From contig CM119271.1 of assembly GCA_051294375.1 (NCBI GenBank), forward strand, positions 12,701,039-12,765,038: a DNA stretch of 64,000 nucleotides, in the 5' to 3' direction. Positions 27,101 through 61,499 of the stretch are shown here, piece by piece (positions within the stretch are counted from its first letter, which is position 1; each line of letters begins with the position of its first letter). This DNA comes from Paraspadella gotoi (taxonomy: Eukaryota > Animalia > Chaetognatha). The notes below the pieces were generated by a model. The model was not told the DNA's origin. It did not search any database and saw only the letters and a list, made by a program, of their open reading frames with translations. The position numbers and the translations under genes were made by a program.

Positions 27101-30100
27101 CAACTCGATGTTTCCGTTTTGGAGTTCCGCCACGATCCAATCGGTAACGCCTTCTTCACTCTGTCAAATCAAAAGGGGCAAATGGAAATATTTAGTTTAT
27201 TATTTAGTTTATTATATTATTTACAAATTAGTTTCGTCCCCACCAGTCGTTTGACCGCTATAATTATGTCTCTGTAAGTAGTTTTCACGAAGTCGCTTCA
27301 ATTCGAATAAGAAAAGAGATTTCATTAGACTGTGACAAACAGCGAGTATCCAAACGGAATCACGCCTCCCAATAGCATAAGGAGACATCTTCAAAACGGT
27401 AAACATTACTCGCCTGCAACGCATGTATCGATCGCATCGCGGGACGACCTTCCATCGGAGACCACCCGAATTATCGCCCGCGACGACGGAGAATTTCCAC
27501 TCTCGATCTTCGTAGTCCCACAAGAAGGCCAACGAAGATGCTGGAAGCATATTCCCACGCTTCTCCACGTGACCCGCCTCGTGATCGCCCCTTCTTTAAG
27601 ATCCACTCAAGAGGTCGTCGTCCTCGACGAGGTAAAGAAGATTCCCGGCGACGTCGGCTTGCTTGTGCGCCAAGACGCGTTGGTGGGAGAATTCGCAAAG
27701 AAGGAAAGGTGAATACGACGAATCGCGTCGCGTCTGCGAACGACGGCGAAAAAGTCGGAAACGAGGAGCGAGTTTATAAAATTTCCGGTTTTCGGCGAGA
27801 GACTCGAAAAGGCCGGGACCGGGACGTCGGGGATGAGTTGGTTCCCAGCGTCCACGTCTCGCCATCCCAGGGACAAGCGACCGCGGCGCGCGCGTAATGG
27901 GAAATCCGAACGGACGATTTCCGCGGAGAAAAAACGAAACAGTGTGCGTGAAGGACGATGGCGCCCTCGCCGACGACGTCGTTGAGGTTGAACTCGTCTA
28001 TCAAAGTCGCGTTCTTCGAATAGAAAATTTTGACTGTGAAGCGAGACCTTACGTCGTTAGGATAGCAGACGGCGATGTCTCTCGTTCGAGGATCGAGTTT
28101 GAAGACGGTCGTCGTTTGAGAAAACTCAATTTCCGGTCTTTCCAAGAATATAAAAAATCGTTGAATCTCTTCTCCACCCAATTTCCTCCAATCTGTATTT
28201 TGGACTGGAGTTCATGGACGATCCGTCGCAGATTTCGGACATCTTCCTCCCGGCGCGGCAACCGGTGGCGGGAAGAGGGCGCGCAAGGTGTCGAGGGTCG
28301 CCGGAAACTCGCGTCTCAATTTGGGCGTGTTCGCGCTTGATGCCGGACCAAGGCCAACGTCGCGTCAAAGTTGGGAGGGAACTTCGTGCCCACGGCAGTT
28401 TGGAGATTTTCCAAGGAAGGAATGGAAAGAAGAAAAAATATTTGGCGGAGGGCGTCCGGGCGGCAAATCTTGCAGGGACATTTTTTTTATCTAAGAAATT
28501 AATAGCAACATATTTTTTTTAAAATGTATGAAAGAAATAAACGAACAATAAAAAAACATTAAACAACAAGTAATAGAGGTAATTTGGTTATAACTATCTC
28601 TATCTAATTTTGTTTCATCTCTAGAATTTAGAATTCCAGAACTTTATCCGCTTTGATTGAAAAAACTTTGCAACACACATTGGTGTCTAGAAAAAAAAAA
28701 GGTACAAGCTCTCTAATAATTGAAAGTTAATACGACGAAGATAAATAAAAGTAATTAAAATAGTGGAGGTGGTCGAGATAAAAATGGCGAACAAAATGAT
28801 CGATTGATTGAAATGAGAAAAGCGATTGGAATCGAATTGGCTCCAAGTGGCATTCATTTTTTTTAGAGAGAGAAAACTTTGGTTAAATTGGCAAACAAAA
28901 CAATACCAAAAAAAAAAAAGAATTCAAAATAATTTCTTATCGGGCAATGAATTTCTAAAGAATTCGTCTGGCGATTTTATTTTCTTTCTTAAATAATAAT
29001 ACTCAGGATCTCCACAAATATATATTGCTTGATATAACTAATATAACTAATAAACTGGAGTAAAACTAATAAATATAACAAATATATATAATAAATAATA
29101 TATACTAATATAATATCAGAACCGGTAACAACGAAATCTAGTATAAGAAAGACGCGTTCATTTGAGTAAAAGAAGTCTACGAAATGTAAAGTTCTTCTCA
29201 GTGAATATAATGATAACAAGTTCAAAATCATAAACGAATGCCTTCAGTATATCATCATCCATGTCCATTCCAAATCCAAGCGTTGGAGAATTTTCCCGGT
29301 GGACACCTCGAAGATTCGAGGAACCTTGTCATTCCATCATCTACCCTATACGTAACGAGAATCCATTCGTGGTAGCCACTACCCACCATTCTGCAAAAAA
29401 AACAAACCAATTCTCCATTTTATCTTAATAAAGCTGAATCACGAGTTCGTTTTAGTTTTTAAATTCTGCCTGCAGGACAATAAGCTTGCTAAATGACTTT
29501 TTTACTAGTTATGGCGATTCAGAAGGATACAGGGAGGATACAGGAAGGATACAGAGAGGATACAGGAAGGATACAGGAAAGGATACAGGAGGATACAGGG
29601 AGGATACAGGGAGGATAAGGATATGATACAGGGATGATACAGGGTGCTTAATACACGACGCCGCTTAGCTTCATTTCTGCCCTAAACTTTTGCGGGGTGA
29701 GCCCTCAACTCCCACGAGCCGCTCTCTTCTCTCTCTCTCTCTCTTCTCTCCCCCCTCTCTCTCTCTCTCTTATCGTCCCTTTCTCCTTCCCTTATTAATT
29801 CACTCTCCAGCACAGAGTAATAAAAACAAACGTTCATTACTTACGCGATACATCACACACAAAAGACAAGGCAACCACAAGTTCCACTCGTTCGAACCAT
29901 CGAATCCTGGTCTCCGTCGACGTTCTCCACAACAATATTTCCGATGGTAACAAAACAAATAGGGCCACTGAGTCGCATACTGTGATTCCCAAGTCATCGC
30001 TCCATAGTGCTCACTTATACTCTATGGTGGTGGGTCTCGAAGTTTCATTGGGAACCTTCCAAATGAAACTTCATACTGTCTGAGAAAACTTTCAATGGAC

Positions 30101-31325
30101 CAAAATTTCTAAAATGGCGAGAAGCTCTAGTAATTAATTTTTTAATATTTATTTATAGATAGAAATGTCCAATTTTTTTTTTAGATTCAGATAGCTTATG
30201 AAAGTGTTCTACACAAGTATAATTCTTTTTTCAATATTTTGATGATAAATGGGTCAAAATTGGAAAAACCTATAAAAAATCATCCTCATCATCATCATCC
30301 AATATTTTAACATTTTTTTTTTATTTTTCAGTATAAAACATCAAAATTTCTAAAAAAGTTGTCATTACATTTTTTTGCCTAACTTTGTGAGCTCTATCAG
30401 AATCAATTAAAAAAAAAATATCCTAAAAATTTTTTTTACATTATATAGCAATATAATAATTTTAATTAAAATCCATATGGATCGGAAAATTTTTGCCAAA
30501 AAAAAATATTTTAACACAATAACCAATACCAATAATGGATTCGTTTAATGCTGTGGCACATTAAAATGTAAATTTGGTCGGCTACGCTACCTTAAGACGT
30601 TCCTCCGCGTAAATCCCAGACGACGACGTCTTTCCCTTCGATGACGTAGAGCGCCGCCCCCGACAACTCACCGGTCGTCGACCATATAGTGTATTCGGCG
30701 CTAAAGCGACTTCGCAGTGTGTAGAATTCCCTATGTATGTTCAACATACTCTGTAAGTTATCTCGCTCTCTCGTTTGGTCGGCTGTGCTTTCTTCCTCTT
30801 TCGTTTTACTCTCGGTTCTGTTATCCTCGATATTTCTCGGTGGTGTACCACATGTCTTTTCCATCTCTTTTGGCATTTCCCTTATGTTTTCCTCGCTTTT
30901 GTGCGTTTTTCCCTTTTTTTCCGAGTTTATTTTCCCCTGTTTGTTTCCTGTGTTGGTTCGACCGAGTGACCCTGCGTGTGTATTCGGTGCCGCCAGGTCT
31001 GTGCCTTTCCTTTTGCCCCTTCTTTTCGATAAGTCCACTTCTCGCTACAACAAAGCTCTTCGGGTGGTCTTGGTTGTCCCGATCGAAGTCTTTCCCAAAT
31101 TCTCAGAGTATTAGCCAGCACGAATCGAACGCTTTTCACGAGAACGAGGCTTCGTCTTTTTTATCACCATCGTCGTTTCGTATGTTTTTCTCGATCTTCC
31201 ACTGGACATCCGATTGGCTCTTTTTTTCACGAACGTCCTCGACGGTTTCGATCCCCTTTTTTTCTTGGAATTACCACCTGAGATTTATGCGAGAGGACGC
31301 TATAGAACAAAAATCTTCGTGTTCC
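24103..31325. repeat. Error-rich duplicate of 31326-38320 (F-box B', C', partial D' and TRIM copy); probable assembly artefact
   Basis: Colinear and near-identical, differing mainly by 1-nt indels; 30690-31325 is an insertion-riddled version of 37940-38320. Confidence 0.85.
25083..25815 (+). mobile_element. TRIM with tRNA-like LTRs, duplicate copy
   Basis: LTRs 25083-25339 and 25559-25815, ATAC TSD, same flanks as 32295-33023. Confidence 0.85.
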
Positions 31326-31427
31326 TAACTAGTAAGAAGACCCATAGCATAGACATTAAAAGAAATGGCATGATAAAATCCCTTTTGCAGGATTTGACTC
31401 TTATATAGACAAACCCATCAAACTCGC

Positions 31428-33706
31428 CTGCATCGACGGAACCGGACCGGCGGTTCGTCCCTTTCCAGTTTTTTCCACTCGACAACTTCCGCCGGCCCAT
31501 TAGCAATGCAAGAGAACTCGTCTTCCTTGTTCCACAAATACGGCCAATTGAAAAATCCCGCCGCGACGCCCTCGCTCCTCCACGTGACGCGTCGCGTTAT
31601 CGTCCGCTCTTTGAGATCAAAGACGACCACGTCTTTGTCCTCGACGAGGTAAAGAAGATTCTCGAACAAATCCGCGTTGTTGTTATCCATATCTTTTCGA
31701 TAGCGAAATTCGAGGGAAGGAAATGAGAAGACGCGAATTCTAGTTCGATCGCGGACGACGACGTAATCCTCGGAAACGAGAAGAGGGTTGGGGATGGAGG
31801 GACTCTTCAACGAGAATGCCCCGTCGAGAATGACTTCACGTTCGTTACTCGACTCGGAGACGACGTCTCGACAGCAGAGCGCCATGCGGAGATTGATTTT
31901 GTGCTTGAGCCAAAGGAAACGACGACCGCGAAAGGCGAAGGCACTCAAGAACATCAAAACTTGAAGGTCGAAGGAGTGGAGTAAAGCGGCGTCTTGGGAA
32001 GAATAAATTCTCACTTGGCTGAGGACCCGGTGGAAAGGATAGTAGACGGCGATGTCGAGAGAGAGGGGGTCCATTTTGAAGACGCACTTGTCTGAGGGGT
32101 AAAGATTGGAAAAATGTTTAAATGAATAGGATTTTTTTTTTTAATTAAGAAAGGTATTCTTTGTGAAGTACGACTTAAAGCCGACTCACGACTCAATGGC
32201 AAAGAAGGTTTAGTCATCTCGTCACGACCGTGAAGTGGCATTGCTCATGATTTGGGGATATCTTACAAGTTTATATTTTAACCAATAGCCATACTGTCGG
32301 CAGCAAAGACTTAAAGCTGCCTCACTGCTGTCCGTCCTCAGCCTCGTCTCAATGGCTGAGCAGGCTAAATCATCTCATTCCATCCGTGCGTCCCGGGTTC
32401 AATCCCTGGGTATCCCGGTTCTGCTTAAATGTGACGGTGCCGGTATAAACATGCCAGTGACAGGAGGCGGTCACTGAGGGTCCGCCAGCCCCTACGCCAG
32501 TTGGTGAGATACCCCGCGCCCGGGTATCGCAGGCTATCCTCCCGTTGCCATAAGTGGTGAGCCCTACTCTCGAACATGCAACCGCTGCGCACCATGCGCC
32601 CATGCTTACGTCGCTTAGGGTATGCATATCACGCCTATGCCCTACTTCTCTGGTAACGCTCCAGACTCGCTCGCCCACTCGCTCTCACTATGGCAATGAG
32701 ATCAAAACCTTCTCTCAGACATCTCCTCAGGATTGAGGCCCCTGTGGAGAAGTCTGGTGGGGGGATCCTGTGGCAGCAAGACTTAAAGCTGCCTCACTGC
32801 TGTCCGTCCTCAGCCTCGTTTCAATGGCTGAGCAGGCTAAATCATCTATTTCATCCGTGCGTCCCGGGTTCAATCCCTGGGTATCCCGGTCTTGGCTTAA
32901 ATGTGACGGTGCCGGTATAAACATGCCAGTGACAGGAGGCGGTCACTGAGGTCCGCAGCCCCTACGCCAGTTGGTGAGATACCCCGCGCCCCGGGTATCA
33001 CAGGCTATCCTCCCGTTGCCATAATACAAACATTTAACCAGAATTAGGATACACACGGTTGAGACCGTCAATGCGAAGCAGTTCCAAGTCTTACCGCCTC
33101 AAAGCAGGTCTTACGCTTTACTATTTTACACAGATTTTTTATCAAATCTTTCAATTTTTCACTTAACCTAAAATCTGCTTGAAAAAGGCATTTAGACTTT
33201 TTGCGACACATTTTTTTATAAATTACACGTTGACTTTTCCCTCTTGGTCAAACATTGAATACAATTTTTTTCGCCTCCCGCATTTCCAGCCCTTTCAACT
33301 ATTTTTCTAAATCATTTTTTTTTTGGTAGCCAAACTCGAGCCCCTTACATTTCTCGTCGCCAGACGGAGGCTTTTCGGCGACGAAGAAGTCGTGGAATCG
33401 TTTCTCCTTCGGCTTCCCATCTCTGACTTTGGCCCTGAGGCAAAGCGCCATCTTGCGAAGGCCGACCGAGTCGTCGTGGGACCGCAATTTGTTCGGAAAG
33501 AGACGAAGGACCGTGTCGACGGAGACAGGGAAATCCCGTCTGACCGCGGGACAGTCGCCTTTGATTTTCTCTACCAAAGTTAATGTTTTGGAAAAGTGGG
33601 AAGAGACGTCGGGATCGACGGCATTTCGAACATTTTCAAGATTCGACGGAGAGAGATGGAAAAATATTTTTTCCAAAATGATCGTGGGCAAATCTGAAAG
33701 AGACAT
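31428..33706 (-). CDS. F-box protein paralog B (exons 33706-33349, 32091-31428; last exon at 21909-22400 in this assembly)
   Basis: MSLSDLPTIILEKIFFHLSPSNL; splice T|AC AAG TGC gives YKCVFKMDPLSLD in frame; LYLVEDKDVVVFDL, FNWPYLW; exon 2 ends at a GC donor. Confidence 0.8.
32295..33023 (+). mobile_element. Non-autonomous miniature LTR retrotransposon (TRIM) with tRNA-derived Pol III module in each LTR
   Basis: LTRs 32295-32552 and 32769-33023 (TGTGGCAGC...GTTGCCATA); PBS TGGTGAGCCC at 32555; G-rich PPT before 32769; 4-bp TSD ATAC (32291-94, 33024-27); A box TGGCTGAGCAGG and B box GGTTCAATCCC. Confidence 0.9.
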
Positions 33707-34136
33707 TTTTTCCCCCTGTAAAAATAGAAGAATGAGAATATTGAACAGAGTGAATATCTTTCAATATGGACGATACCATTCTGAATAGTAAGTCAGTCAA
33801 CTGGCACAAGGGGAATAAAAAAGGACATGCTAAGTAAAGAAATAGCACCCTGTCAATTATTAAGGCAACGAGAGAAAATCACAGTAATGAACTTTGTATA
33901 TAGGTATTCTGGCTTTTAATGCATTATGCAATTGCCATATATCTACTGTAAAATTGTAAATTGCCAAATGAAAGCAAAAAAATAAAAATAAAATAGAATC
34001 GAATAGAAAAATTAAAAAATTAAGTTTTTTTTTTTTAAAAAAGGTACATAATGATTCAACCGAAAAAATGATTCAATATTAAAACGGTATATAATGTATA
34101 ACAGCACAAGAGTATAATAAATCACACGAGATCAAA

Positions 34137-35727
34137 TCACGAAAAGAGCATTTCTTCGCTGATGCTAAAAGATCGCAGGCAAAATCTACGGTTGTGACGG
34201 TCGGACAAAATGAAATAAACATGAAAATCATGGACAAATGTCCGATAAATGGACTGGTCACTTCCCAATTCGAGGTCAAAATGTGCTAGGATGTCCCCAG
34301 ATGAAGAATGAACCAACTCGATGTTTCCGTTTTGGAGTTCGGCCACGATCCAATCGGTAACGCCTTTACTCACTCTGTCAAATCAAAAGGGGCAAATAGG
34401 AAATATTTAGTTTATTATTTAGTTTATTATATTATTTACAAATTAGTTTCGTCCCCCCCAGTCGTTGACCGAGCATCTACAATTCTACGTTCTACTGTCT
34501 CTACATCTAGTATTGGTAGTTTCACGAAGTCGCTCAAAACTTCAATGTTCTCGAATAAGAAAAGAGATTTCATTAGACTGTGACAAACAGCGAGTACTCC
34601 AAACGGAATCACGCTTCCCAATAGCATAAGAGACACATCTCAAAACGGATAAACATTACTCGCCTGCAACGCATGTATCGATCGCATCGCGGGACGACCT
34701 TCCATCGGAGACCACCCGAATTATCGCCGTGGACGACGGAGAATTTCCACTCTCGATCTTCGTAGTCCCACAAAGAAGGCCAACGAAGATGCTGGAAGCA
34801 TATTCCCACGCTTCTCCACGTGACCCGCCTCGTGATCGCCCCTTCTTTAAGATCCCACTCAATGAGGTCGTCGTCCTCGACGAGGTAAAGAAGATTCCCG
34901 GCGACGTCGGCTTGCTTGTGCGCCAAGACGCGTTGGTGGGAGAATCGCAAAGAAGGAAAGGTGAATACGACGAATCGCGTCGCGTCGCGAACGACGGCGA
35001 AAAAGTCGGAAACGAGGAGCGAGTTTATAAATTTCCGGTTTTCGGCGAGAGACTCGAAAAGGCCGGGGACCGGGACGTCGGGGATGAGTTGGTTCCCAGC
35101 GTCCACGTCTCGCCATCCCAGGGACAAGCGACCGGGCGCGCGCGTAATGGGAAATCCGAACGGACGATTTCCGCGGAGAAAAACGAAACAGTGTGCGTGA
35201 AGGACGATGGCGCCCTCGCCGACGACGTCGTTGAGGTTGAACTCGTCTATCAAAGTCGCGTTCTTCGAATAGAAAATTTTGACTGTGAAGCGAGACCTTA
35301 CGTCGTTAGGATAGCAGACGGCGATGTCTCTCGTTCGAGGATCGAGTTTGAAGACGGTCGTCGTTTGAGAAAACTCAATTTCCGGTCTTTCCAAGAATAA
35401 AAAATCGTTGAATCTCTTCTCCACCCAATTTCCTCCAATCTGTATTTTGGACTGGAGTTCATGGACGATCCGTCGCAGATTTCGGACATCTTCCTCCCGG
35501 CGCGGCAACCGGTGCGGGAAGAGGCGCCGCAAGGTGTCGAGGGTCGCCGGAAACTCGCGTCTCAATTTGGCGTGTTCGCGCTTGATGCCGGACACGAAGG
35601 CCAACGTCGCGTCAAAGTTGGGAGGGAACTTCGTGCCCACGGCAGTTTGGAGATTTTCCAAGGAAGGAATGGAAAGAAGAAAAAATATTTGGCGGAGGGC
35701 GTCCGGCGGCAAATCTTGCAGGGACAT
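34137..35727 (-). CDS. F-box protein paralog C (exons 35727-34664, 34374-34137)
   Basis: MSLQDLPPDALRQIFFLLSIPSL; LYLVEDDDLIEWDL, LRWPSLW; GC-AG phase-2 intron joins in frame to VSKGVTDWIV...EEMLFS*. Confidence 0.85.
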
Positions 35728-36404
35728 TTTTTTTATCTAAGAAATTAATAGCAACATATTTTTTTTAAAATGTATGAAAGATAATAACGAACAATAAAAA
35801 AACATTAAACAACAAGTAATAGAGGTAATTTGGTTATAACTATCTCTATCTAATTTTGTTTCATCTCTAGAATTTAGAATTCCAGAACTTTATCCGCTTT
35901 GATTGAAAAAACTTTGCAAACACATTGGTGTCTAGAAAAAAAAAAGGTACAAGCTCTCTAATAATGAAAGTTAATACGACGAAGATAAATAAAAGTAATT
36001 AAAATAGTGGAGGTGGTCGAGATAAAAATGGCGAACAAAATGATCGATTGATTGAAATGAGAAAAGCGATTGGAATCGAATTGGCTCCAAAGTGGCATTC
36101 ATTTTTTATAGAGAGAGAAACTTTGGTTAAATTGGCAAACAAAACAATACCAAAAAAAAAAAAGAATTCAAAATAATTTCTTATCGGGCAATGGAATTTC
36201 TAAAGAATTCGTCTGGCGATTTTATTTTCTTTCTTAAATAATAATACTCAGGATCTCCACTAAATATATATTGCTTGATATAACTAATATAACTAATAAA
36301 CTGGAGTAAAACTAATAAATATAACAAATATATATAATAAATAATATATACTAATAAATATCAGAACCGGTAACAACGAAATCTTAGTATAAGAAAGACG
36401 CGTT

Positions 36405-36951
36405 TCATTTGAGTAAAAAAGAGAGTCTACGAAATGTAAAGTTCTTCTCAGTGAATATAATGATAACAAGTTCAAAATCATAAACGAATGCCTTCAGTAT
36501 ATCATCATCCATGTCCATTCCAAGATCCAAGCGTTGGAGAATTTTCCCGGTGGACACCTCGAAGATTTCGAGGAACCTTGTCATTCCATCATCTACCCTA
36601 TACGTAACGAGAATCCATTCGTGGTAGCCACTACCCACCATTCTGCAAAAAAAAACAAACCAATTCTCCATTTTATCTTAATAAAGCTGAATCACGAGTT
36701 CGTTTTAGTTTTTAAATTCTGCCTGCAGGACAATAACGCTTGCTAAATGACTTTTTTACTAGTATGGCGATTCAGGAAGGATACAGGGAGGATACAGGAA
36801 GGATACAGGAAGGATACAGGGAGGATACAGGGAGGATACAGGGAGGATACAGGAATGATACAGGGATGATACAGGGTGCTTAATACACGACGCCGCTTAG
36901 CTTCATTTCTGCCCTAAACTTTTGCGTGGGTGGAGCTCAACTCCCACGAGC

Positions 36952-36991
<40 letters not shown>

Positions 36992-38697
36992 AATCGTCCC
37001 TTTTCTCCTTCCCCTTATTAATATTCGACTGCAGCAGGCAGAGTAATAAAAACAAACGTTCATTACTTACGCGTAATTCACACGACGAAAAGGACAAGGC
37101 AACCACAAGTTCCACTCGTTCGAATCCATCGAATCCTGGTCTCCGTCGACGTGTCTCCACAACAATATTTCCGATTGGTAACAAAACAAATAGGGCCACT
37201 TGAGTCGCATACTGTGAATTCCATTCTCCGTCCAAGTCATTCGCCTTAAGTAGGGCCAAACTTTGTCAATGGGGTGGGTCAGAAGTTTCATTTGGGAACC
37301 TTCCCAAATGAAACTTCATACATGTCTGAGAAAACTTTCAATGGACCAAAATTTTCTAAAATGGCGAGAAGCTCTAGTAATTAATTTTTTAATATTTATT
37401 TATAGATAGGAAATGTCAATTTTTTTTTTAGATTCAGATAGCTTATGAAAAGTTGTCTACACAAAGTATAATTCTTTTTTCAATATTTTGATGATAAATG
37501 GGTCAAAATTGGGAAAAACCTAAAAAAATCATCCTCATCATCATCATCCAATAATTTTAACAGTTTTTTTTATTTTTCAGTAATAAAACATCAAAATTCT
37601 AAAAAGTTGTCATTACATTTTTTTGCCTAACTTTGTGAGCTCTATCAGAATCAATTAAAAAAAAAAAATATCCTAAAAATTTTTTTACATTATATAGCAA
37701 TATAATAATTTTAATTAACGAATTACTCAATGGATCGGAAAATTTTTGCCAAAAAAAAATATTTTAACACAATAACCAATACCAATAATGGATTCGTTTA
37801 ATGCTGTGCACATTAAAATGTAAATTTGGTCGGCTACCGCTACCTTAAGACGTTCCTCCCGCGTAAATCCCAGACGACGACGTCTTTCCCTTCGATGACG
37901 TAGAGCCGCCCGCCGACAAGCTCAGCGCCGGTCGTCGACCAAGATTCGGAATAAGCGAATCGCAGAGAAGGAAAGTCAAAGACGAAGATGGTCGAGGCGT
38001 CTCGTACGACGGCGTAATCGTCGGAAAGTTCAATCATGTTTTGCAAGTTGGAGCGGTAACCGTGGACGGGGACCGAGGTGACGGACGGCGGGGCCGCGGC
38101 CTCGAAGTCCACTTCTCGTAAACAAAGCCTCGGGGTCTTGGCTGCGATCGAGTCTTCCCAATAATCAGAGAGCCAGACGAATCGACGGTCACGAGAAGAG
38201 GCGGAAACCACGTCGTCGAGTCGATCCACTTGGAACCGATTGGACGAACCGTCGACGGCGTGGAATTCCACTTGAGATTTATTGCGGAGGACGGTATAGA
38301 CAAAAATCACGTCTAATGAAAGAGGGTCAACGAAGAGACAATAAACGGTTTCAGTAGGGGGCGGGGGAATGTTCACCTTCATTACGCTCGTCTTTCTCTC
38401 CACGTGTCCGTGGATGATCTTAGACTTGAGACGATCCACCATCTTGGACAGATTCTCCGCGTCTTCCGGAAATCGCAATTTCTCGGGAAAACGACGACGG
38501 ACGAAGTCGACGGCCGAAGGATGAGTCCATTTCAACTTTAAGTAGTTGACCCGATTTTTTAAAACAAATTCCAACGTTTGGGAAAAGCGGGCGGGGATTT
38601 CCGATCCCGCGGCCTCTTTTAAAACTTCCAGAGTCGACGGGGAAAGAAGGAAAAAGATTTTTTCCAAGATTTCCGGCGGTAAATCTTGAAGAGACAT
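36405..38697 (-). CDS. F-box protein paralog D (exons 38697-37844, 37244-37071, 36642-36405)
   Basis: MSLQDLPPEILEKIFFLLSPSTL; ...VVVWDLRGRNVLR|RMTWTENG...LKWPYLF...; last exon MVGSGYHEW...SFLLK*; all junctions in frame. Confidence 0.85.
36775..36876. repeat. 10-bp minisatellite (GGATACAGG(G/A))n, ~10 copies; duplicate at ~29524-29645
   Basis: Direct inspection; lies in the last intron of F-box D. Confidence 0.9.
37250..37844. mobile_element. 595-bp TTAA-flanked insertion forming F-box D intron 1 (Introner-like)
   Basis: TTAA at 37246-49 and 37845-48; imperfect TIRs GTAGGGCCAAACTTT / GGTAGCGGTAGCCGACCAAATTT (rc); intron 37245-37843 = element + 4 nt. Confidence 0.75.
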
Positions 38698-39033: not shown

Positions 39034-40409
39034 TCATTTGAGGACGAAAGAATAAATAGCCAATCTACTCGTGTCGATGCAATGAGTGATCATAAAAAAT
39101 TGGAAATCGTGAAGAATCACGCGAACGGGGCCTTCCGACTTCTCCATCTCTTTGATTCGAAACTGTTTCAAGTTTTCTCCCGTCTGAACTTCGCAGAGGT
39201 CCGTGAATTGATAATCGGGGTGAGTGAGGATCCAATCGGAAATTCCCTCACTTTGTCTGTAAAATGGTTACGTTGAGATCAAACTCTTCGTATCGACTAT
39301 GGAACACGGATATTCCGTTGGTTCATTTATCGATTTAAATATATACAACTCACCCAATCTTTTCCTGCATCATGAAAAAAGGATTGTTCACGACGGGATT
39401 CCATTCCACGGACCGCGCGGACTCGTCTTCTCCATCTAGAACGGCGAAAGCGACCCCTTCGTTCCCGTCGCCGTACAAATAGGGCCACTTGAGGTTCGCC
39501 GTCTCTATTCCAGATCGTTTCCAGGTCAACCTCCTCCTCATCCTCCCCTCGCCCAAATCCCAAACGACGAGATCCCGATTTTCCAGGACGTAGAGAGATC
39601 GACCGACGATTTGAAAGCCTTGAGTCGCCCAGTTCTTTTTGTAGGCGAATCGGAGAGATGGAAAGTGAAAGACGAAGATTTGATGAGTATCGCGGACGAC
39701 GGCGAAAGAGTCGGAAACGACGAGACCGCCTTTGAGTATTCCGTGGTGACCGTGGATGGGCGTTTCGGTGACGGGCGGCGATCCTTCGCCGCCGAAATCC
39801 ACGTCTCGATAACAAATCCTCATGCAGCCGGCGATGGCGTCCTTCTGTTGGCTGAGCCAAACGAAACGACGACGACGAACGGAAAAGAACGGGCCCCAGA
39901 TCCACTGAAACTCTTTGGGCTGCGAAAGCGATCCATCCTTGGTAGGGTAGATCTTCACGGCGGATTTAGCGCGAGTGAGAAAATAAGAAAGGGCGACGTC
40001 GCAGGTGACGGCGTCGAACTTAAAAACGCATCTACGCTCTCCGGGTCGCGGTCCAAATCCAGCACGACCTTTTTTTCCTCCCATTCTCCGCGTTCCACTC
40101 TGGACGTGAGATCGTTCACGATCGCGAAGAGATTTTCCGCGTCTTCGCGGAAACGCAACTTTTCCGGGAAAGGCGCTGCGCCGTGTCGACGGAGGCGGGA
40201 ATGCTGGCTGTCTCAACCGGGCGTAGTCGCGTTGGGTTTTTAACGGAAACTCCAAGGATCGGGAAAAGTGGGCGGGGATTTCCGATCCCCGCGGCCTCTT
40301 TTAAAAGTTCCAGCGACGACGGGGAAAGGAGGAAAAATATTTTTTCTAAGATTTCCGGCGGCAATTCGTGCAAAGTCAGTGAACGAGTCGCGGATTGACT
40401 TTTCGACAT
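39034..40409 (-). CDS. F-box protein paralog E (exons 40409-39354, ~39256-39034); frameshifts at ~40000-40290, probably sequencing errors
   Basis: MSKSQSATRSLTLHELPPEILEKIFFLLSPSSL; LYVLENRDLVVWDL, LKWPYLY; phase-2 last intron shared with paralogs. Confidence 0.8.
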
Positions 40410-40523
40410 CTATAAAAAAATTAATTAATAAAAAAAAAAAAAATATAATAATAATACAGAAGAAAAGCAAATGGTAATTAAAAAAGGGGCCATGGGAGGG
40501 AACGGATCGAGGAAAATAAGAGG

Positions 40524-42215
40524 TCATCTAATGCAACTGTAACGAGAAAACTCGTTGGTGGTGAAACTGCCACGGGAGAGGGCCGACATGCCCATGGGCC
40601 CAGTTTCCACCGGAGCGAAAATCTTAATCTGTCGCATGTGAGTGTCTCTTCCGTTTTGATGGTTGGAGAGAACCGCGATTTGCACCATGAATGTCCTGGG
40701 AAGAAAACAGGACCTGTATCACGCAATGATTGTATTCAACAGTCATAATTTTTTTTTTTCAAAATCTGAATACAGTTCATCGATATTCGTTGAGAAAAGA
40801 CGTCGGCGTTAACAATTCACAATTCGGTAAATTTAAAAGCGTTTCGACCATTCATCATTCATAGAAAGACGTTGTTATGATTAATATTAAGATCCATCGT
40901 TCCGCCCATCGCCGTCGAAACCTGAGAGGCCGAGAGAGTCGAGCGTTGGGTCCGTTGGGTCCGTTGTGCTCAAGTGCGGACTGCAATGGGATGAAAGTCC
41001 ATCCAGTTGGTTCTTGAAGATCGACCGACTCGATCTCTTGCAGATCGTTGAAATGATTTCCTGCCGTGGAAAAATAAAAAAAAAGAATCAAGGAATGTCC
41101 ATTGTCCAATGGAAAGACGTTGATTGGATGAAATCACGCGGCCAATCACCGGCTCGAATGGAGATCCTGCTCGGCGTGTAGGATTCGTCTTGCTTGTAGT
41201 CGGCGAAGATGCAAACGTCTCGAACCTGAAGTCGAGGGAAAAAACAATGAACCCCATTGAAACAAAACCACTTTTGGCATCGACAACAACAACAACAACT
41301 GGGAAGATCGTATCGACCCCTTCGACCCTTTGCCTTCGACTACCCTTTACCTACTACCTAGAACCGATCTCGTTTCTCTGATTCGCTTTGTTGTATTCTC
41401 CGCGTTTTTCTATTGTTTTCTCTCTCCTTCTGCTATCGGCGTGTTTCTCGCTTTTTTAAAATGATTTGTAAATTGTTTTTTGTAAATAATTCGAGAAAGG
41501 TTCCAAGTCTATTGCCAATCAATCGACCCATAAAAAGACCAATCAACTCACCGCCGTCTTCTTTCTAAACTGTATGTTAACAAGATGAGGTTGAGGCCCG
41601 TCCGATTGCCAATAAGTATCCAATGAGTCGTCCCTCAATTGATCAACGCCGAAGCCTGAAGCGAGTCAGGAAACAAAAGATTGAGTTTTAAGTTGCTGCC
41701 GCCGCTGCTGCGGTCTGCCCCGCCGCCTCCTCCTCTCAAACTTACCCGGTTTGCATGAGCTCAAAGACCAGACGGCCTGATTCCCGACTTCCCTCACTTT
41801 TCCTTCCTTCTCCGCCTTTAAAGGATCCGAGTCGGTGGATGCAGCGGCGGCGTTGCGTTGAGAATCGTCTTGAGAGAAAAACGTCTGTAAAATAACTTAC
41901 CAATATCAAGCATTCAAATCACGATACTTACCATGAGCCCCGCTTCCGGCCGGACCGCTCTCCCCTCCCGCCACAGGCGACCGCTCGCCAGGCGTTCCGG
42001 CGTTGCTTCGCGGCGGCGGAGGCGGGGGCGGCGCCGTCTCGTTGGTGCTGCCCGGGGTGAAGGGTGGCGCCGGTGGCGGAGTTTCCCGCGCCGCCGTTGG
42101 GCAAGAATTGAGGCGAGGGATTGGCGGCGTTGTAGCCGCTTGAACCAGGGCCGGCAAGATGCGCGGGAATGTTGGCGGAATCGGGTTGGGGGGAGTCTCC
42201 GTTCTGTCGCTCCAT
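40524..42215 (-). CDS. ANAPC10: Anaphase-promoting complex subunit 10 (DOC1) with low-complexity N-terminal extension
   Basis: [89 protein letters not shown], ends with the IR* tail. Confidence 0.95.
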
Positions 42216-42910
42216 CGTTTAGCGGATTTTTTTTAGGGGGGTGTGGGAGGGAGTTGGAAGAGTTTGAAGGGGGGGCGCGTGGTGATTGGTTTCTTTTCCT
42301 TTTGAGTTTTTTTTTTTAAATTCATTCGTCGATCGAGAGAAAAATCTTAAAAAGTAGACGCGTGAAAAGAAAAAAAAAGAAGAAAAAAATTTGATAACAA
42401 GAAGAGGTCGGCGCGCGAGGGCCGCGAGTTATGTATGCATTGGGTCTACATATAAGTCAATAATCGATCAGTCTAGTTGTGTCATCTCTCTCTCTCTTTC
42501 TCTCTTCTCTCTCTCCGCGGAGCTCAATTTGGGGAGATAGAGAGAAAGAGACGCAATTCTGCAGAGAGATATCTCCCTTCAGTCACTAACGCACACACTC
42601 AAAAAAGAAAGAAAAGTCGGACCGCGTTGTAAAAAAAAAATATATTACCGCTAATAACTCGATCGATTGGAGACAAGAAAAAAAGAATCTATACCAAGTC
42701 CCCGTTATTCTAATTTAGTATCTAACAGTATTTTTATTTGTTTTTTTTTTTTTTTTGTTATTTTTTTATATAAATAGAAAACTAATCGTAGCAGGATTTT
42801 TAATTTTTTTGTTTTTTAAATTTTGCGAGGAAAAAAAAAAGGTTAGAGAGGTGGGAGGGGAAGGAAGGAGGGAGGAGAGAGAGAGAGAGGAGGAGAAGAG
42901 AGAGAGAGAG

Positions 42911-42946
<36 letters not shown>

Positions 42947-42954
42947 GAGACGTG

Positions 42955-44161
42955 TCATCGTTCTTCTAGGAACAAAGTTTCCTGAGGACAGAGATCGAGT
43001 TCCTTGAAAGTCTTTCTCAAATCGGAAGGATCGTTGCTGAGATCTCGTCTCGGCCAGGATGAGAGGATCTTGTACTCTTCGATCGGAAAACCTTTCGAAG
43101 CGATGAACTGGAAAGGAGGGAGAGCGAGAGGTTGGGAAGGTTAAGTGAGAACGAAACTGAGTCTGAAGGAGAGAGAGAGAAAGAGAGAGAGTTTGTGAAA
43201 GTAAGTGAAAACTGAGTCTGAGGAGACTCACCTGAAAAAGTTCGACGAGCGAAGCGGCCGCCAAAAATCTTAAAAAAAAAAAAAGATGAATATCCGTGAA
43301 CATTCTTCAACCCTTTCGACATCATTCCAAATTCTTTTAACAATCTTCAACATTCTTTAACAATTAACAATTAAGAATTAACGTCCTTGAGCCCCAAAGT
43401 AGTCACCGTCTTGGGAGGAACTCTCCGTCGGGTTTTTCGAATCCGAATTCTGGAGAATCGGCTCCGTCGTTGAATCGTCGGGTTCGTCGGGAGAATATCC
43501 TGTGGGGTTTGAAAAGAGGAGAAAGGGGGGGATGGAAGGGGGGAGGAGGGGGAATGGAAGGGGGAAGGAAGGGAGGGGGGAATGGAAGGGAGGGGATCGG
43601 AGGAATAATCAAGTAAGAAACGCGGATCAAAGAAAAAGACGGAAAAGTTAATAAAGAAAATGAGACGAAGAATAAACAAGAACGGAGATTCCGATGTGCC
43701 TTGCGACGGAGTGACTTTTTTTATCACGTGTATTTTCCGTGTATGTTCGACACGCACTGCAACAGAATAGGTGGCGCAAGGAGTCCCGCTTAGATTCGAG
43801 GTTCTTTTTCGTGTCAGCAAAAATAAGAAAAGAGCAACAAATTATGAGACCTTCTCCTTCCCCTTCCCCAAACCTGGATGATCTCTGGATGGCCGTCCTC
43901 AGCTCCTTCTCGTGCTCCTCCCTTTTCTTCTCGGCGATCCTCATCAGCTCCTCTCTTTCCTGCTCCTGTTTCCGCTCGATTCTCTTCCTCCTTTTTCTTC
44001 TCTTCTTTGGCGCGATCGATGGCGAGGGATTCCTATTGGGGGGGGGGGAATTTAATTAAATTAGCGATTATTTAATAAATTTAATGAATTCAATGAGTTT
44101 CATCATTTGAAACCCTGAAAAAAAGGCCGGGGGAAAATAGGATCCTCTTCTCTTGCTCCGT
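42955..44161 (-). other. FAF1: Duplicate of FAF1 3' exons (UBX domain); probable assembly artefact
   Basis: Near-identical to 47376-48550; ends at the 25-N gap 44162-44186. Confidence 0.8.
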
Positions 44162-44186: not shown

Positions 44187-47100
44187 AACGAAACGACGAC
44201 GACGAACGAAAGAAGGAACAGGGTGCGCCGCTAATCGATCCACTTGAAACTCTTTGGGCTGCGAAAGTGATCCATCCTTTGTAGGGTTATCTTCACCGCG
44301 GATTTAGCGCGAGAGAAAATATAAGAAAGGGCGACGTGCAGGTGACGGCGTCGAACTTAAAAACGCATCTTGACGCTCTCCGGGTCGCGGTCCAATCCAG
44401 CACGACCTTTTTTCCTCCATTCTCTGCGCTTCCACTCTGGACGTGAGATCGTTCACGATCGCGAAGAGATTTTCCGCGTCTTCGCGGAAACGCAACTTTT
44501 CCGGGAAAAGGCGCTGCGCCGTGTCGACGGAGGCGGGGAATGCTGCGTCTCAACGCGGGCATAGTCGCGTTGGGTTTTTATGACAAACTCCAAGGATCGG
44601 AAAAGTGGGCGGATTTTCGATCCGCGCGGCCTCTTTTAAAAGTTCCAGCGACGACGGGGAAGGAGGAAAAATATTTTTTCTAAGATTTCCGCGGCGGCAA
44701 TTCGTGCAAAGTCAGTGAACGAGTCGCGGATTGACTTTTCGCCATTCTATAAAAAATTAATTAATAAAAAAAAAAAAAATAATAATATAATAAGGAGAGA
44801 AAAGCAAATGGTAATTAAAAAAGGGGCCATGGGAGGGAACGGATCGAGAAAATATAAGCAAGGGTCATCTAATGCAAAGGTTGGCAGTTGTCACCACCTA
44901 GATCGCCCTAGAAACTCGCGAGTTGGGAAACCTGCCATACGGTGTAGCACGGGACAGACATGCCGCATGGTTCGCACAGTTTTCTCAACCGGATTTAAAG
45001 TCTGAAAATCTTAAGCGTCGCGACAATGTGACACGATGTCTCTCCGTTTGATGGTTGAGAGAACCGCGATTGCACATGATGTCTGGGAAGAAACAGGATC
45101 TCTGTACTCACGCAATTGATTGCTATTCATACTCATGAATTATTTTTTATTTATCAAAATCTGTAATACAGTTCATCGATATTCGTTGAGAAAAGACGTC
45201 GGCTTAAATTAAATTCAAATTTAAGAATTATGATAACAAGCGTTTGTCGATACTCATGTCATTCACATTCATTAAGAAAGACGTTGTTATGATTAATTTA
45301 AGATCCATCGTTTCCGCCCATCGCCGTCGAAACCTGAGAGGCCGAGAGAGTCGAGCGTTGGGTCCGTTGGGTCCGTTGTGCTCAAGTGCGGACTGCAATG
45401 GGATGAAAGTCCATCCAGTTGGTTCTTGAAGATCGACCGACTCGATCTCTTGCAGATCGTTGAAATGATTTCCTGCCGTGGAAAAATAAAAAAAAGAATC
45501 AAGGAATGTCCATTGTCCAATGGAAAGACGTTGATTGGATGAAATGCACGCGGCCAATCACCGGCTCGAATGGAGATCCTGCTCGGCGTGTAGGATTCGT
45601 CTTGCTGTAGTCGGCGAAGATGCAAACGTCTCGAACCTGAAGTCGAGGGAAAAAACAATGAACCCCATTGAAACCAAAACCACTTTTGGCATCGACAAAA
45701 CAACAACAACTGGGAAGATCGTATCGACCCCTTCGACCCTTTTGCCTTCGACTACCTTTACCTACTACCTAGAACCGATCTCGTTTCTCTGATTCGCTTT
45801 GTTGTATTCTCCGCGTTTTTCTATTGTTTTCTCTCTCCTTCTGCTATCGGCGTGTTTCTCGCTTTTTTAAAATGATTTGTAAATTTTTTTTTGTAAATAA
45901 TTCGAAGAAAGGTTCCAAGTCTATTGCCAATCAATCGACCATAAAAAGATCAATCAACTCACCGCCGTCTTCTTTCTAAACTGTATGTTAAAAGATGAGG
46001 TTGAGGCCCGTCCGATTGCCAATAAGTATCACAATGAGTCGTCCCTCAATTGATCAACGCCGAAGCCTGAAGCGAGTCAGGAAACAAAAGAATTGAGTTT
46101 TAAGTTGCTGCCGCCGCTGCTGCGGTCTGCCCGCCGCCTCCTCCTCTCAAACTTACCCGGTTTGCATGAGCTCAAAGACCAGACGGCCTGAATTCCCGAC
46201 TTCCCTCCACTTTTCCTTCCTTCTCCGCCTTTAAAGGATCCGAGTCTGTGGATGCAGCGGCGCGGGCCGGCGCGTTGCGTGAGAATCGTCTTGAGAGAAA
46301 AACGTCTGTAAAATAACTTACAATATCAAGCATTCAAATCACGATACTTACCATGAGCCCGCTTCCGGCCGGACCGCTCTCCCCTCCGCCACAGGCGACC
46401 GCCTGCCAGGCGTTCCGGCGTTTGCTTCGCGGCGGCGGAGGCGGGGGCGGCGCCGTCTCGTTGGTGCTGCCCGGGGTGAGGGTGGCGCCGGTGGCGGAGT
46501 TTCCCGCGCCGCCGTTGGGCAAGAATTGAGGCGAGGGATTGGCGGCGTTGTAGCCGCTTGAACGCAAGGGCCGGCAAGATGGCGGGAATGTTGGCGGAAT
46601 CGGGTTGGGGGGAGTCTCCGTTCTGTCGCTCCATCGTTTAGCGGATTTTTTTTAGGGGGGTGGTGGGAGGGGAGTTGGAAGAGTTTGAAAGGGGGGGCGC
46701 GTGGTGATTGGTTTCCTTTTCCTTTTGAGTTTTTTTTTTTAAATTCATTCGTCGATCGAGAGAAAAATCTTTAAAAAGTAGACGCGTGAAAAGAAAAAAA
46801 AAAGAAGGAAAAAAATTTGATAACAAGAAGAGGTCGGGCGCGAGGGCCGCGAGTTATGTATGCATTGGGTCTACATATAAGTCAATAATCGATCAGTCTA
46901 GTTGGCATCTCTCTCTCTCTTTCTCTCTCTCTCTCCGCGGAGCTCATTTGGGGAGATAGAGAGAAAGAGACGCAATTCTGCCAGAGAGATATCTCCCTTC
47001 AGTCACTAACGCACACACTCAAAAAAGAAAGAAAAGTCGGACCGCGTTGTAAAAAAAAATATATTACCGCTAATAACTCGATCGATTGGAGACAAGAAAA

Positions 47101-47296
47101 AAAGAATCTATACCAAGTCCCCGTTATTCTAATTTAGTATCTAACAGTATTTATTTGTTTGTTTTTTTTTTTGTTATTTTTTTATATAAATAGAAACTAA
47201 TCGTAGGCAGGATTTTTAATTGTTTTTGTTTTTTAAATTTTGCGAGGAAAAAAAAAAAGGTTCTAGAGGGTGGGAGGGGAAGGAAGGAGGGAGGAG

Positions 47297-47371
<75 letters not shown>

Positions 47372-48550
47372 CGTGTCATCGTTCTTCTAGGAACAAAGTT
47401 TCCTGAGGACAGAGATCGAGTTCCTTGAAAGTCTTTCTCAAATCGGAAGGATCGTTGCTGAGATCTCGTCTCGGCCAGGATGAGAGGATCTTGTACTCTT
47501 CGATCGGAAAACCTTTCGAGGCGATGAACTGGAAAGGAGGGAGAGCGAGAGGTTGGGAAGGTTAAGTGAGAACGAAACTGAGTCTGAGGAGAGAGAGAGA
47601 AAGAGAGAGAGTTTGTGAAAGTAAGTGAAAACTGAGTCTGAGGAGACTCACCTGAAAAAGTTCGACGAGCGGAGCGGCCGCCAAAAATCTTAAAAAAAAA
47701 AAAAGATGAATATCCGTGAACATTCTTCAACACCTTTCGACATCATTCCAAATTCTTTTAACAATCTTCAACATTCTTTAACAATTAACAATTAAGAATT
47801 AACGTCCTTGAGCCCAAAAGTAGTCACCGTCTTGGGAGGAACTCTCCGTCGGGTTTTCGAATCCGAATTCTGGAGATCGGCTCCGTCGTTGAATCGTCGG
47901 GTTCGTCGGGGAGAATATCCTGTGGGGTTTGAAAAGAGGAGAAAGGGGGGGATGGAAGGGGGGAGGGAGGGGGAATGGAAGGGGGAAGGAAGGGAGGGGG
48001 GAATGGAAGGGAGGGGATCGGAGGAATAATCAAGTAAGAAACGCGGACAAAAGAAAAAGACGGAAAAGTTAATAAAAGAAAATGAGACGAAGAATAAACA
48101 AGAACGGAGATTCCGATGTGCCTTGCGACGGAGTGACTTTTTTTATCACGTGTATTTTCCGTGTATGTTCGACACGCACTGCAACAGAATAGGTGGCGCA
48201 AGGAGTCCCGCTTAGATTCGAGGTTCTTTTCGTGTCAGCAAAAATAAGAAAAGAGCAACAAAATTATGAGCCTTCTCCTTCCCCTTCCCCAAACCTGGAT
48301 CGATCTCTGGATGGCCGTCCTCAGCTCCTTCTCGTGCTCCTCTCTTTTCTTCTCGGCGATCCTCATCAGCTCCTCTCTTTCCTGCTCCTGTTTCGCTCGA
48401 TTCTCTTCCTCCTTTTTCTTCTCTTCTTTGGCGCGATCGATGGCGAGGGATTCCTATTGGGGGGGGGGGAAATTTAATTAATTAGCGATTATTTAATAAA
48501 TTAATGAATTCAATGTATCATTTTAAACCTGAAAAGCGATCTCTTGCTCG
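44187..48550. repeat. Second copy of ~39860-44161 (F-box E 5' part, ANAPC10 at 44865-46634, FAF1 3' end)
   Basis: Colinear near-identity; indel density rises toward the N gap. Confidence 0.9.

Positions 48551-61448: not shown

Positions 61449-61499
<51 letters not shown>

What the first reader, a model, noticed from the sequence alone, without database searches (positions are those of the whole stretch)
37245..37848. Introner-like event: TTAA-targeting insertion that builds a perfectly spliced new intron in one F-box paralog
Seen: on the coding (minus) strand the sequence reads GTC TTAA G|GTAGCGGTAGCCGACCAAATTT ... AAAGTTTGGCCCTAC TTAAG|G CGA ATG. TTAA is duplicated either side of a 595-bp insert with imperfect inverted ends. 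The element's first bases supply the GT donor, and the second TTAA plus the flanking G supply the AG acceptor. The 599-nt intron equals element + TSD, so splicing restores GTC TTA AGG CGA ATG (VLRRM) exactly. Paralogs A, B, C and E have no intron at this position (TRRVAW/TRRVTW/RRRLTW). Known: Introners are transposons that create introns by co-opting TSDs; TTAA TSDs typify Kolobok and piggyBac. Inference: a TTAA-specific intron-generating family, possibly undescribed in this lineage.
Basis: partly seen in the sequence, partly recalled or inferred. Interest (0 to 1): 0.85.

Follow-up and report, generated by a model that had tools for sequence, protein, structure and literature searches.

The report
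Transposon spliced out as new intron
A 592-base jumping element of a high-copy family sits in the coding sequence of one F-box-like gene and is cleanly missing from an assembled transcript, so it is likely a new intron, made by a chance landing on a suitable 7-base site rather than by the TTAA-targeting family first proposed.

Summary
The insertion and the splice geometry are real, but the transposon was misread. The duplicated target is 7 bp (CTTAAGG), not TTAA. Other copies diverge from this locus at 37251 and 37842/3, and only 4 of 92 listed flank contigs run through TTAA. The element is therefore 592 bp with TAG…CTA ends and is hAT-like (inferred), not Kolobok or piggyBac. One RNA-type run has a contig joining the two exons exactly. 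Six DNA runs (5 samples) all carry the insertion with no sign of an empty allele. The donor GT is the target's last G plus the element's first T; the acceptor AG lies in the second target copy. Flanks suggest a preferred target nTnnnAn, and 0 of 1024 such 7-mers splice perfectly, so this copy looks like an off-consensus hit. No second intron-forming copy was shown. The same transcript also drops a 64-nt coding piece, which shifts the frame. hAT introners that co-opt both splice sites are already published. The scan noted other TAGGG-ended spliced elements elsewhere in this genome (e1-10599122, unchecked).

The parts
37251..37842 (-). 592-bp non-coding, AT-rich (26.5% GC) non-autonomous DNA transposon, termini TAG...CTA, high-copy family
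   Evidence: Loose ends of other copies pile up at 37251 and 37842/37843; GC and termini; longest open frame 54 codons
37843..37849 (-). Upstream copy of the 7-bp target duplication (sense CTTAAGG); its last G is the G of the donor GT
37244..37250 (-). Downstream copy of the 7-bp target duplication; holds the acceptor AG (37246-37245)
37245..37843 (-). New 599-nt GT-AG intron = 1 target base + element + 6 target bases; donor AAG|GTAGCG; branch-point-like CTGAC at -38 and TTGAC at -25
   Evidence: Sequence; X9 contig joins 37843 to 37243 (record 25) with exon 2 letters as the loose end
37844..38697 (-). Exon 1 of the F-box-like paralog (ATG at 38697)
   Evidence: F-box match weak (Pfam PF12937 E 0.04, below cut-off; Atlas F-box cluster 0.95 with sub-threshold recognition)
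37071..37244 (-). Exon 2 (174 nt)
36643..37070 (-). Second, ordinary GT-AG intron (GTAAGT...GCAG)
   Evidence: X9 contig leaves the locus at 37071 and has zero depth at 36996-37059, where the DNA runs continue
36405..36642 (-). Exon 3 to the stop codon (inferred)
38313..38376 (-). 64-nt GT-AG piece inside exon 1 (codons 108-129, coding in paralogs) that the X9 transcript removes, giving a frameshift and a stop at codon 109
   Evidence: Joint 38312-38377 CT..AC with zero X9 depth inside; translation; paralog alignment
37282..37317 (.). Perfect 17-bp-arm palindrome 31 bp inside one end of the element
   Evidence: most family contigs differ at 37289 and 37303, so it may not be perfect in the family
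30021..30590 (-). Apparent second copy; part of a 6.7-kb indel-rich duplicate (24104-30684 vs 31330-37941) with the same upstream junction; likely an assembly artefact, not an independent insertion
   Evidence: locus depth in the DNA runs is like that of other copies' unique flanks (97 vs 75-127 in X3)

Best explanation
A non-autonomous, likely hAT-type cut-and-paste transposon (592 bp, TAG...CTA ends) inserted into the first coding exon of one F-box-like paralog, duplicating the 7-base target CTTAAGG, and the insertion is likely removed from the RNA as an ordinary GT-AG intron that restores the original sequence exactly. The donor is the target's last G plus the element's first T, preceded by exonic AAG. 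The acceptor is the AG inside the second target copy. Both splice sites are therefore recruited wholly or partly from the target duplication. The family has many copies, but its apparent preferred target (T at position 2, A at position 6) cannot give a frame-neutral intron. This copy is therefore most likely a lucky off-consensus insertion that survived because it splices, possibly helped by weak selection on a redundant paralog. Shown: sequence anatomy, boundaries, multi-copy status, the exact exon junction in one RNA-type contig, and the insertion in 5 DNA samples. Inferred: hAT mobilisation, the 7-bp TSD as a family trait, the target preference, fixation and relaxed selection.
For: 7-bp exact repeat. 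Boundaries from other copies: 40 of 45 listed contigs break at 37251 (365 loose-end rows not shown); 32 of 47 break at 37842/3 (8 rows not shown). Summed contig depth is in the thousands to hundreds of thousands over the element against 14-97 over the exons (not a copy number); 28 flank contigs at one end in X1 alone. X9 record 25 runs 38618-38377, 38312-37843, 37243-37071 contiguously, and its loose end at 37843 is exon 2 sequence. It also lacks intron 2, so it behaves as spliced RNA. DNA runs X1, X3, X5, X6, X7, X8 (5 samples, 2 studies) each have one contig running from exon 1 into the element. X9's allele at 38142 also occurs on insertion-bearing contigs in X1 and X8. Four paralogs lack the intron. 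Target pattern: T at position 2 and A at position 6 in 8 of 8 unambiguous consensus rows at one end, and in 3 of 4 rows each at the other; A at position 7 in only 2 of 8. Enumeration: 762 of 16384 7-mers splice perfectly, 0 of 1024 with both T2 and A6; this site has T2 but G at position 6. Repbase holds hAT families with 7-bp TSDs (PMC4455052 passage). hATm termini begin TAGGG (PMC6004678 passage). hATx-6 target bias falls on sites 2 and 7 of its 8-bp TSD (PMC8721813 passage).
Against: X9 is only guessed to be RNA, is a different sample from all the DNA runs, and is contigs, not reads. The spliced junction has the same sequence as an empty allele, so an X9 individual without the insertion cannot be formally excluded. 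TSD length was measured on both sides only at this locus. The target pattern comes from consensus lines of 2-28 AT-rich flanks (agreement about 0.5) in which the same loci recur across runs. No transposase or autonomous partner was found, and the TIR is only 3-5 bp, so hAT is an inference. 13 of 47 listed flanks align to 37845 or beyond; some may be AGG sites in other exons, which would favour a real introner family. The one transcript seen is frameshifted upstream by a 64-nt skip, so production of the full 421-aa protein is not shown.
Confidence: 0.72

Rival explanations
1. The family is a true introner: several copies sit in exons of unrelated genes at AGG-, GGT- or AGGT-containing targets and are spliced out, so TAG-ended hAT-like elements are an ongoing source of introns in this genome.
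For: Both element ends begin TAG, so a preceding AGG gives a donor in either orientation. The family is high-copy, and 2.7% of 7-mers in five coding stretches of the window (135 of 5006) are perfect targets. 13 of 47 listed flanks align to 37845 or beyond. An unchecked scan note (e1-10599122) reports TAGGG-ended elements with 9-bp TSDs as introns elsewhere in this genome.
Against: Only one copy is shown as an intron. Full-consensus targets never splice perfectly (0 of 1024). Most flank consensus lines are AT-rich, while the exons here are about 50% GC. The alignments tolerate mismatches, so the 13 flanks are not shown to be AGG sites.
Confidence: 0.2
2. The insertion is an unspliced or poorly spliced knockout allele, and the joined RNA contig comes from an individual carrying the empty site.
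For: The spliced product equals the empty site. X9 is a separate sample with no matching DNA run. The gene may be dispensable (frameshifted transcript).
Against: All 5 DNA samples carry the insertion, on contigs that do not break at the insertion point. Both alleles at 38142 are seen on insertion-bearing contigs. The donor, acceptor and branch-like motifs are canonical.
Confidence: 0.07
3. The element belongs to another superfamily with 7-bp TSDs, such as P, or to an unclassified group; the splicing mechanism is unchanged.
For: P elements make 7-8 bp TSDs (PMC5199201 passage). hATm makes 8-9 bp TSDs, not 7. No transposase was found.
Against: TAGGG/TAGCG ends resemble hATm termini. P termini begin CA (recalled, no call). 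hAT families with 7-bp TSDs exist.
Confidence: 0.12
4. A TTAA-specific Kolobok- or piggyBac-like element of 595 bp.
For: TTAA does occur on both sides at this locus.
Against: TTAA is the inside of a 7-bp repeat. Only 4 of 92 listed flank contigs run through TTAA, and 34 of 47 stop before the proposed element end at 37844. The proposed 3' end AC is not YY.
Confidence: 0.02

Closest known systems
hAT-derived introners scored 'co-opt both' in Gozashti et al. 2025 (PMC12130899, Dataset S2 rows: Panicum virgatum fam14, Styela clava fam1, Fusarium oxysporum FOLYT1 'TA/TA termini, 8bp TSD'; section 6, passages and 30 of 63 'hAT' places of that file seen)
   Same: Non-autonomous TIR element in a coding exon; both splice sites taken wholly or partly from the target duplication; the FOLYT1 family also has TA...TA ends.
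   Different: TSD here is 7 bp (8 in those rows); only one intron-forming copy is shown, whereas their definition needs at least 4 in unrelated genes; this element's end motifs had 0 hits in the 12 of 14 supplementary files searched, which may not hold consensus sequences.
hATm family (PMC6004678, passages) and hAT families with 7-bp TSD in Repbase (PMC4455052, passage; the name hATw for the 7-bp group is recalled, from no call)
   Same: TAGGG-like termini, a 7-9 bp class TSD, symmetric bias at the second and second-last target positions (as in hATx-6, PMC8721813 passage).
   Different: hATm has TAGGGTG termini and 8-9 bp TSDs; here TAGGGCC/TAGCGGT and 7 bp; no transposase to place it.
Micromonas pusilla IE1 MITE introners (review PMC11282704, passages) and single transposon-derived introns generally
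   Same: Element plus one TSD copy is excised and the acceptor AG comes from the TSD.
   Different: IE1 carries its own donor, has a 3-bp TSD and made thousands of introns; here the donor is a target/element hybrid and the case is single so far.
Kolobok / piggyBac (PMC9587614, PMC5199201, passages)
   Same: TTAA appears on both sides at this one locus.
   Different: The family does not target TTAA, the duplication is 7 bp, and the termini are TAG...CTA, not RR...YY.

Membership tests
Kolobok | TTAA-specific 4-bp TSD | tested here: not met
   7-bp repeat; 4 of 92 listed flank contigs run through TTAA
Kolobok | Termini 5'-RR...YY-3' | tested here: not met
piggyBac | TTAA TSD | tested here: not met
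hAT superfamily | Short TIRs beginning YAG (recalled) / TAGGG as in hATm | tested here: inconclusive
   TAG exact at both ends, 4 of 5 in TAGCG/TAGGG, little complementarity beyond
hAT superfamily | 8-bp TSD, with known 7-bp families | tested here: inconclusive
   7 bp at this locus; one-sided flanks fit 7-bp symmetry; Repbase lists 7-bp hAT families
hAT superfamily | Autonomous partner with hAT transposase (PF05699) and matching ends | not testable with these tools
   No whole genome held; the element has no frame over 54 codons
hATm | TAGGGTG...CACCCTA termini and 8-9 bp TSD | tested here: not met
   Ends TAGGGCC / TAGCGGT and 7-bp TSD
Introner (Gozashti et al.) | Element is spliced out of an exon upon insertion | tested here: met
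   One RNA-type contig with the exact junction; different sample from the DNA runs
Introner (Gozashti et al.) | Homologous genes lack an intron at that position | tested here: met
   4 of 4 distinct paralogs spanning the site are uninterrupted; orthologs in other species were not available (one search found none)
Introner (Gozashti et al.) | Repeat family with dispersed copies | tested here: met
   28 flank contigs at one end in X1; many more in 6 other runs
Introner (Gozashti et al.) | At least 4 intron-forming copies in unrelated genes | not testable with these tools
   Criterion from PMC12130899 passage; no genome or annotation held; flanks are given only as 30-letter consensus lines
Helitron/Helentron | No TSD; subterminal hairpin | tested here: not met
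   Hairpin present but an exact 7-bp duplication is too; absence of TSD in helitrons per PMC12130899 section 6

The most novel reading that the evidence does not exclude
TAG-ended hAT-like transposons with different TSD lengths (7 bp here; 9 bp in an unchecked note on another piece of this genome) are an active multi-family intron factory in a likely animal genome. Any landing behind AGG builds a hybrid G|TAG donor in either orientation, and introns accumulate only at off-consensus targets, so selection on splicing and not targeting decides which copies persist in exons.
Probability: 0.22. Interest if true: 0.65.

Novelty: new member of a known kind. Interest (0 to 1): 0.42.

Why it matters
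Recent, sequence-resolved intron gains from transposons are rarely documented in animals (PMC9860276 passage: two animal groups among 835 animal and land-plant genomes; more were added in PMC12130899). This case has the whole chain in view: intronless paralogs, an exact TSD, a high-copy family, the insertion in five samples and a joined transcript. It also yields a testable rule. Frame-neutral splicing needs targets that break the family's apparent T2/A6 preference, whereas the common targets ending in AG would splice one base short. Exonic copies should therefore be strongly enriched for off-consensus sites compared with intergenic ones. The mechanism itself is already described.

Tried and rejected
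No whole genome is held, so no genome-wide copy census was possible. The second in-window hit (30021-30590) was rejected as an independent copy: it has the same junction inside a 6.7-kb indel-rich duplicate. Homolog search with exon 1: none at E<=0.001 among 1012 candidates, so there is no ortholog test. Lineage unresolved: SPAG6 best identity 77% to unnamed proteins; the quick tree (63 of 120 hits used; careful search unfinished) groups the window only with two unnamed proteins; the KH-RRM protein has no named close relative. 'Likely animal' rests on these hits and on unchecked scan notes. No run is on record as RNA; X9 is a guess. Rfam: 4 weak matches (E 0.2-1), all far below gathering scores. 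A scan for other YAG-ended elements with 7-9 bp repeats gave 9 pairs including this one; the two examined (11910-12359, 41179-41435) look like chance. Literature: 'introner'+'TTAA' 0 papers; 'introner'+'Kolobok' 1 listing, not read; a six-term TSD search 0; 'hATw'+'TSD' gave no statement of TSD length. PMC12130899 Dataset S2 has Kolobok-terminus hits only in unclassified dinoflagellate rows and no piggyBac. Files 13-14 of that paper and Repbase/Dfam were not searched and could hold this family.

Full report
Observation. On the minus strand an F-box-like ORF starts at 38697 and is interrupted at 37844. TTAA lies at 37845-37848 and 37246-37249, 595 bp apart. The only GT-AG pair around the ends defines a 599-nt intron, 37843-37245 (a GC donor at 37840 was the only other candidate in the range tested). 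Removing it, and an ordinary second intron, gives 421 aa. Four paralogs in the window are uninterrupted at this point and align without a gap across the junction; unspliced, the frame stops one codon later. The insert is 26.5% GC against 52% and 47% for the exons. The F-box call is weak: PF12937 E 0.04 here, PF00646 E 0.003 in one paralog, both below cut-off; Atlas F-box cluster 0.95 with sub-threshold recognition.

The duplication is 7 bp, not 4. Comparing both sides at the 599 offset gives an exact CTTAAGG repeat at 37843-37849 and 37244-37250. The sequence alone allows any register inside it, so I used other copies to fix the ends.

The in-window second copy is not independent. The 94% hit at 30021-30590 lies in a 6.7-kb duplicate full of one-base indels (24104-30684 vs 31330-37941, 165 gap openings) and has the same upstream junction. 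Locus depth in DNA runs resembles that of other copies' unique flanks (97 vs 75-127 in X3). It is likely an assembly artefact.

Family and boundaries. No genome is held, so I laid public contigs. Nine of 11 listed runs hold the stretch, from 3 studies; I laid 7 of them. Summed depth over the element is tens to thousands of times that over the exons; the tool warns this is no copy number. At the 37251 end, 45 flank contigs are listed: 40 break at 37251, 4 at 37250 and 1 at 37246 (365 loose-end rows hidden). At the other end, 47 are listed: 18 at 37842, 14 at 37843, 2 at 37837, 2 at 37845, 8 at 37846 and 3 at 37848-37850 (8 rows hidden). A TTAA-targeting 595-bp element predicts that all match through 37246 and 37848; 4 of 92 do. 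The element is thus 37251-37842, 592 bp, with ends TAGCGG and TAGGGC, a TIR of only 3-5 bp, no frame over 54 codons, a 17-bp-arm palindrome near one end and no Rfam family.

Target preference. Reading the first seven flank bases of the eight unambiguous consensus rows at the 37842 end, position 2 is T in 8 of 8, position 6 is A in 8 of 8 and position 7 is A in 2 of 8. At the other end T2 and A6 each hold in 3 of 4 rows. This fits a palindromic 7-bp target nTnnnAn. The caveats are small, AT-rich, non-independent samples, and that TSD length was measured on both sides only here. It parallels the site 2/7 bias of hATx-6 in its 8-bp TSD (PMC8721813 passage). hATm ends begin TAGGG but make 8-9 bp TSDs (PMC6004678 passage), and Repbase lists hAT families with 7-bp TSDs (PMC4455052 passage). 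Kolobok needs TTAA and RR...YY ends (PMC9587614 passage); both fail. P elements also make 7-8 bp TSDs (PMC5199201 passage) and remain a rival. With no transposase in hand, 'hAT-like' is an inference.

Splicing. X9 record 25 (1158 nt, depth 17) maps contiguously to 38618-38377, 38312-37843 and 37243-37071, and X9 has no depth in the second intron where DNA runs continue. Its loose end at 37843 is exon 2 sequence, so the junction is exactly the predicted one. No X9 contig joining exon 1 to the element was seen. Six DNA runs from five samples each have a single contig running from exon 1 into the element, with no break at the insertion point; contigs drop rare variants, so this shows high frequency, not fixation. 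The spliced junction is identical to an empty allele and X9 is a sixth sample without DNA, so an empty allele is not formally excluded. X9's allele at 38142 does occur on insertion-bearing contigs in X1 and X8.

Mechanism. Intron = last G of the first target copy + element + first six bases of the second copy. The donor AAG|GTAGCG is a hybrid of target and element; the acceptor AG is inside the target; branch-like motifs lie at -38 and -25. For this element 762 of 16384 possible 7-mers give a frame-neutral GT-AG intron, in either orientation, but 0 of 1024 with both T2 and A6 do; this site has G at position 6. Consensus targets ending in AG would splice one base short. In five coding stretches of the window 135 of 5006 7-mers (2.7%) are perfect targets. 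So the family is not built to make introns, but a high-copy family will sometimes do so. Against this reading, 13 of 47 flanks align to 37845 or beyond and could include further AGG sites; mismatch-tolerant alignment prevents a decision.

A complication. The same X9 contig removes 38376-38313, a 64-nt GT-AG piece, and X9 has no depth inside it. The piece encodes residues 108-129, including the DP motif shared with three of four paralogs. Its loss shifts the frame to a stop at codon 109. The only transcript seen therefore cannot make the full protein. A retained form may have been collapsed by the assembler, or the paralog may be decaying, which would make tolerance of the insertion less remarkable.

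Comparison and novelty. Introners that recruit both splice sites from the TSD are described (PMC9860276 passages). hAT introners scored 'co-opt both' are listed for switchgrass, the tunicate Styela and Fusarium (PMC12130899 Dataset S2 rows). That catalogue covers annotated genomes and requires four or more introns in unrelated genes; this element's end motifs were absent from 12 of 14 supplementary files. Searches for introner+TTAA found nothing and introner+Kolobok one unread listing, but the TTAA premise fails anyway. The bioRxiv version was seen only as abstract and outline. The lineage is unresolved. An unchecked scan note reports TAGGG-ended elements with 9-bp TSDs as introns elsewhere in this genome; a sequence look-up with this element did not return that note, so it is likely a different family. 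Verdict: a well-supported single transposon-derived intron, a new member of a known kind; the TTAA/Kolobok family claim is rejected; introner-family status is open.

Noticed in passing
window 38313-38376 (-): 64-nt GT-AG exitron removed in the only transcript contig seen; frameshifts the F-box-like gene (stop at codon 109).
   Followed up: partly
window 24104-30684 vs 31330-37941; 39860-44121 vs 44187-48535; N runs at 11408, 15241, 22261, 44162: Long indel-rich near-duplicates and short overlaps beside N gaps, plus garbled sequence at about 30700-31330, look like error-prone long-read gap filling; gene copy numbers in this window are unreliable.
   Followed up: partly
window about 20760-44700 (-): Tandem cluster of at least five divergent F-box-like paralogs (33-39% identity to this one) with no database relatives at E<=0.001.
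   Followed up: partly
window 38142 and 38160: Polymorphisms in exon 1: a missense change (A186T) in X1, X8 and X9, and an in-frame 3-nt deletion in X8.
   Followed up: no
window 37282-37317: Perfect 36-bp palindrome inside the element; most family contigs differ at two of its positions.
   Followed up: partly
window 60008-61519 (-): Single long ORF with a KH domain followed by two RRMs; best relative is an unnamed protein at 43% identity.
   Followed up: partly
window 55152-55802 (+): SPAG6/PF16-like armadillo exon; indicates a flagellated or ciliated eukaryote; long branch, lineage unresolved.
   Followed up: partly
window 41179-41435 (and duplicate 45591-45846): TAG...CTA stretch of 257 bp flanked by an 8-bp direct repeat; likely chance, not tested against reads.
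   Followed up: partly
window 18509-19269, 36770-36870, 48637-48961, 135-377: Tandem arrays (about 55-bp, 11-bp, 92-bp and 50-bp units) seen in self-comparison or by eye.
   Followed up: no
X7 record 10 and X8 records 18-19: Some other copies' flank contigs have about half or less of the typical depth, which may mean polymorphic insertions and recent activity.
   Followed up: no
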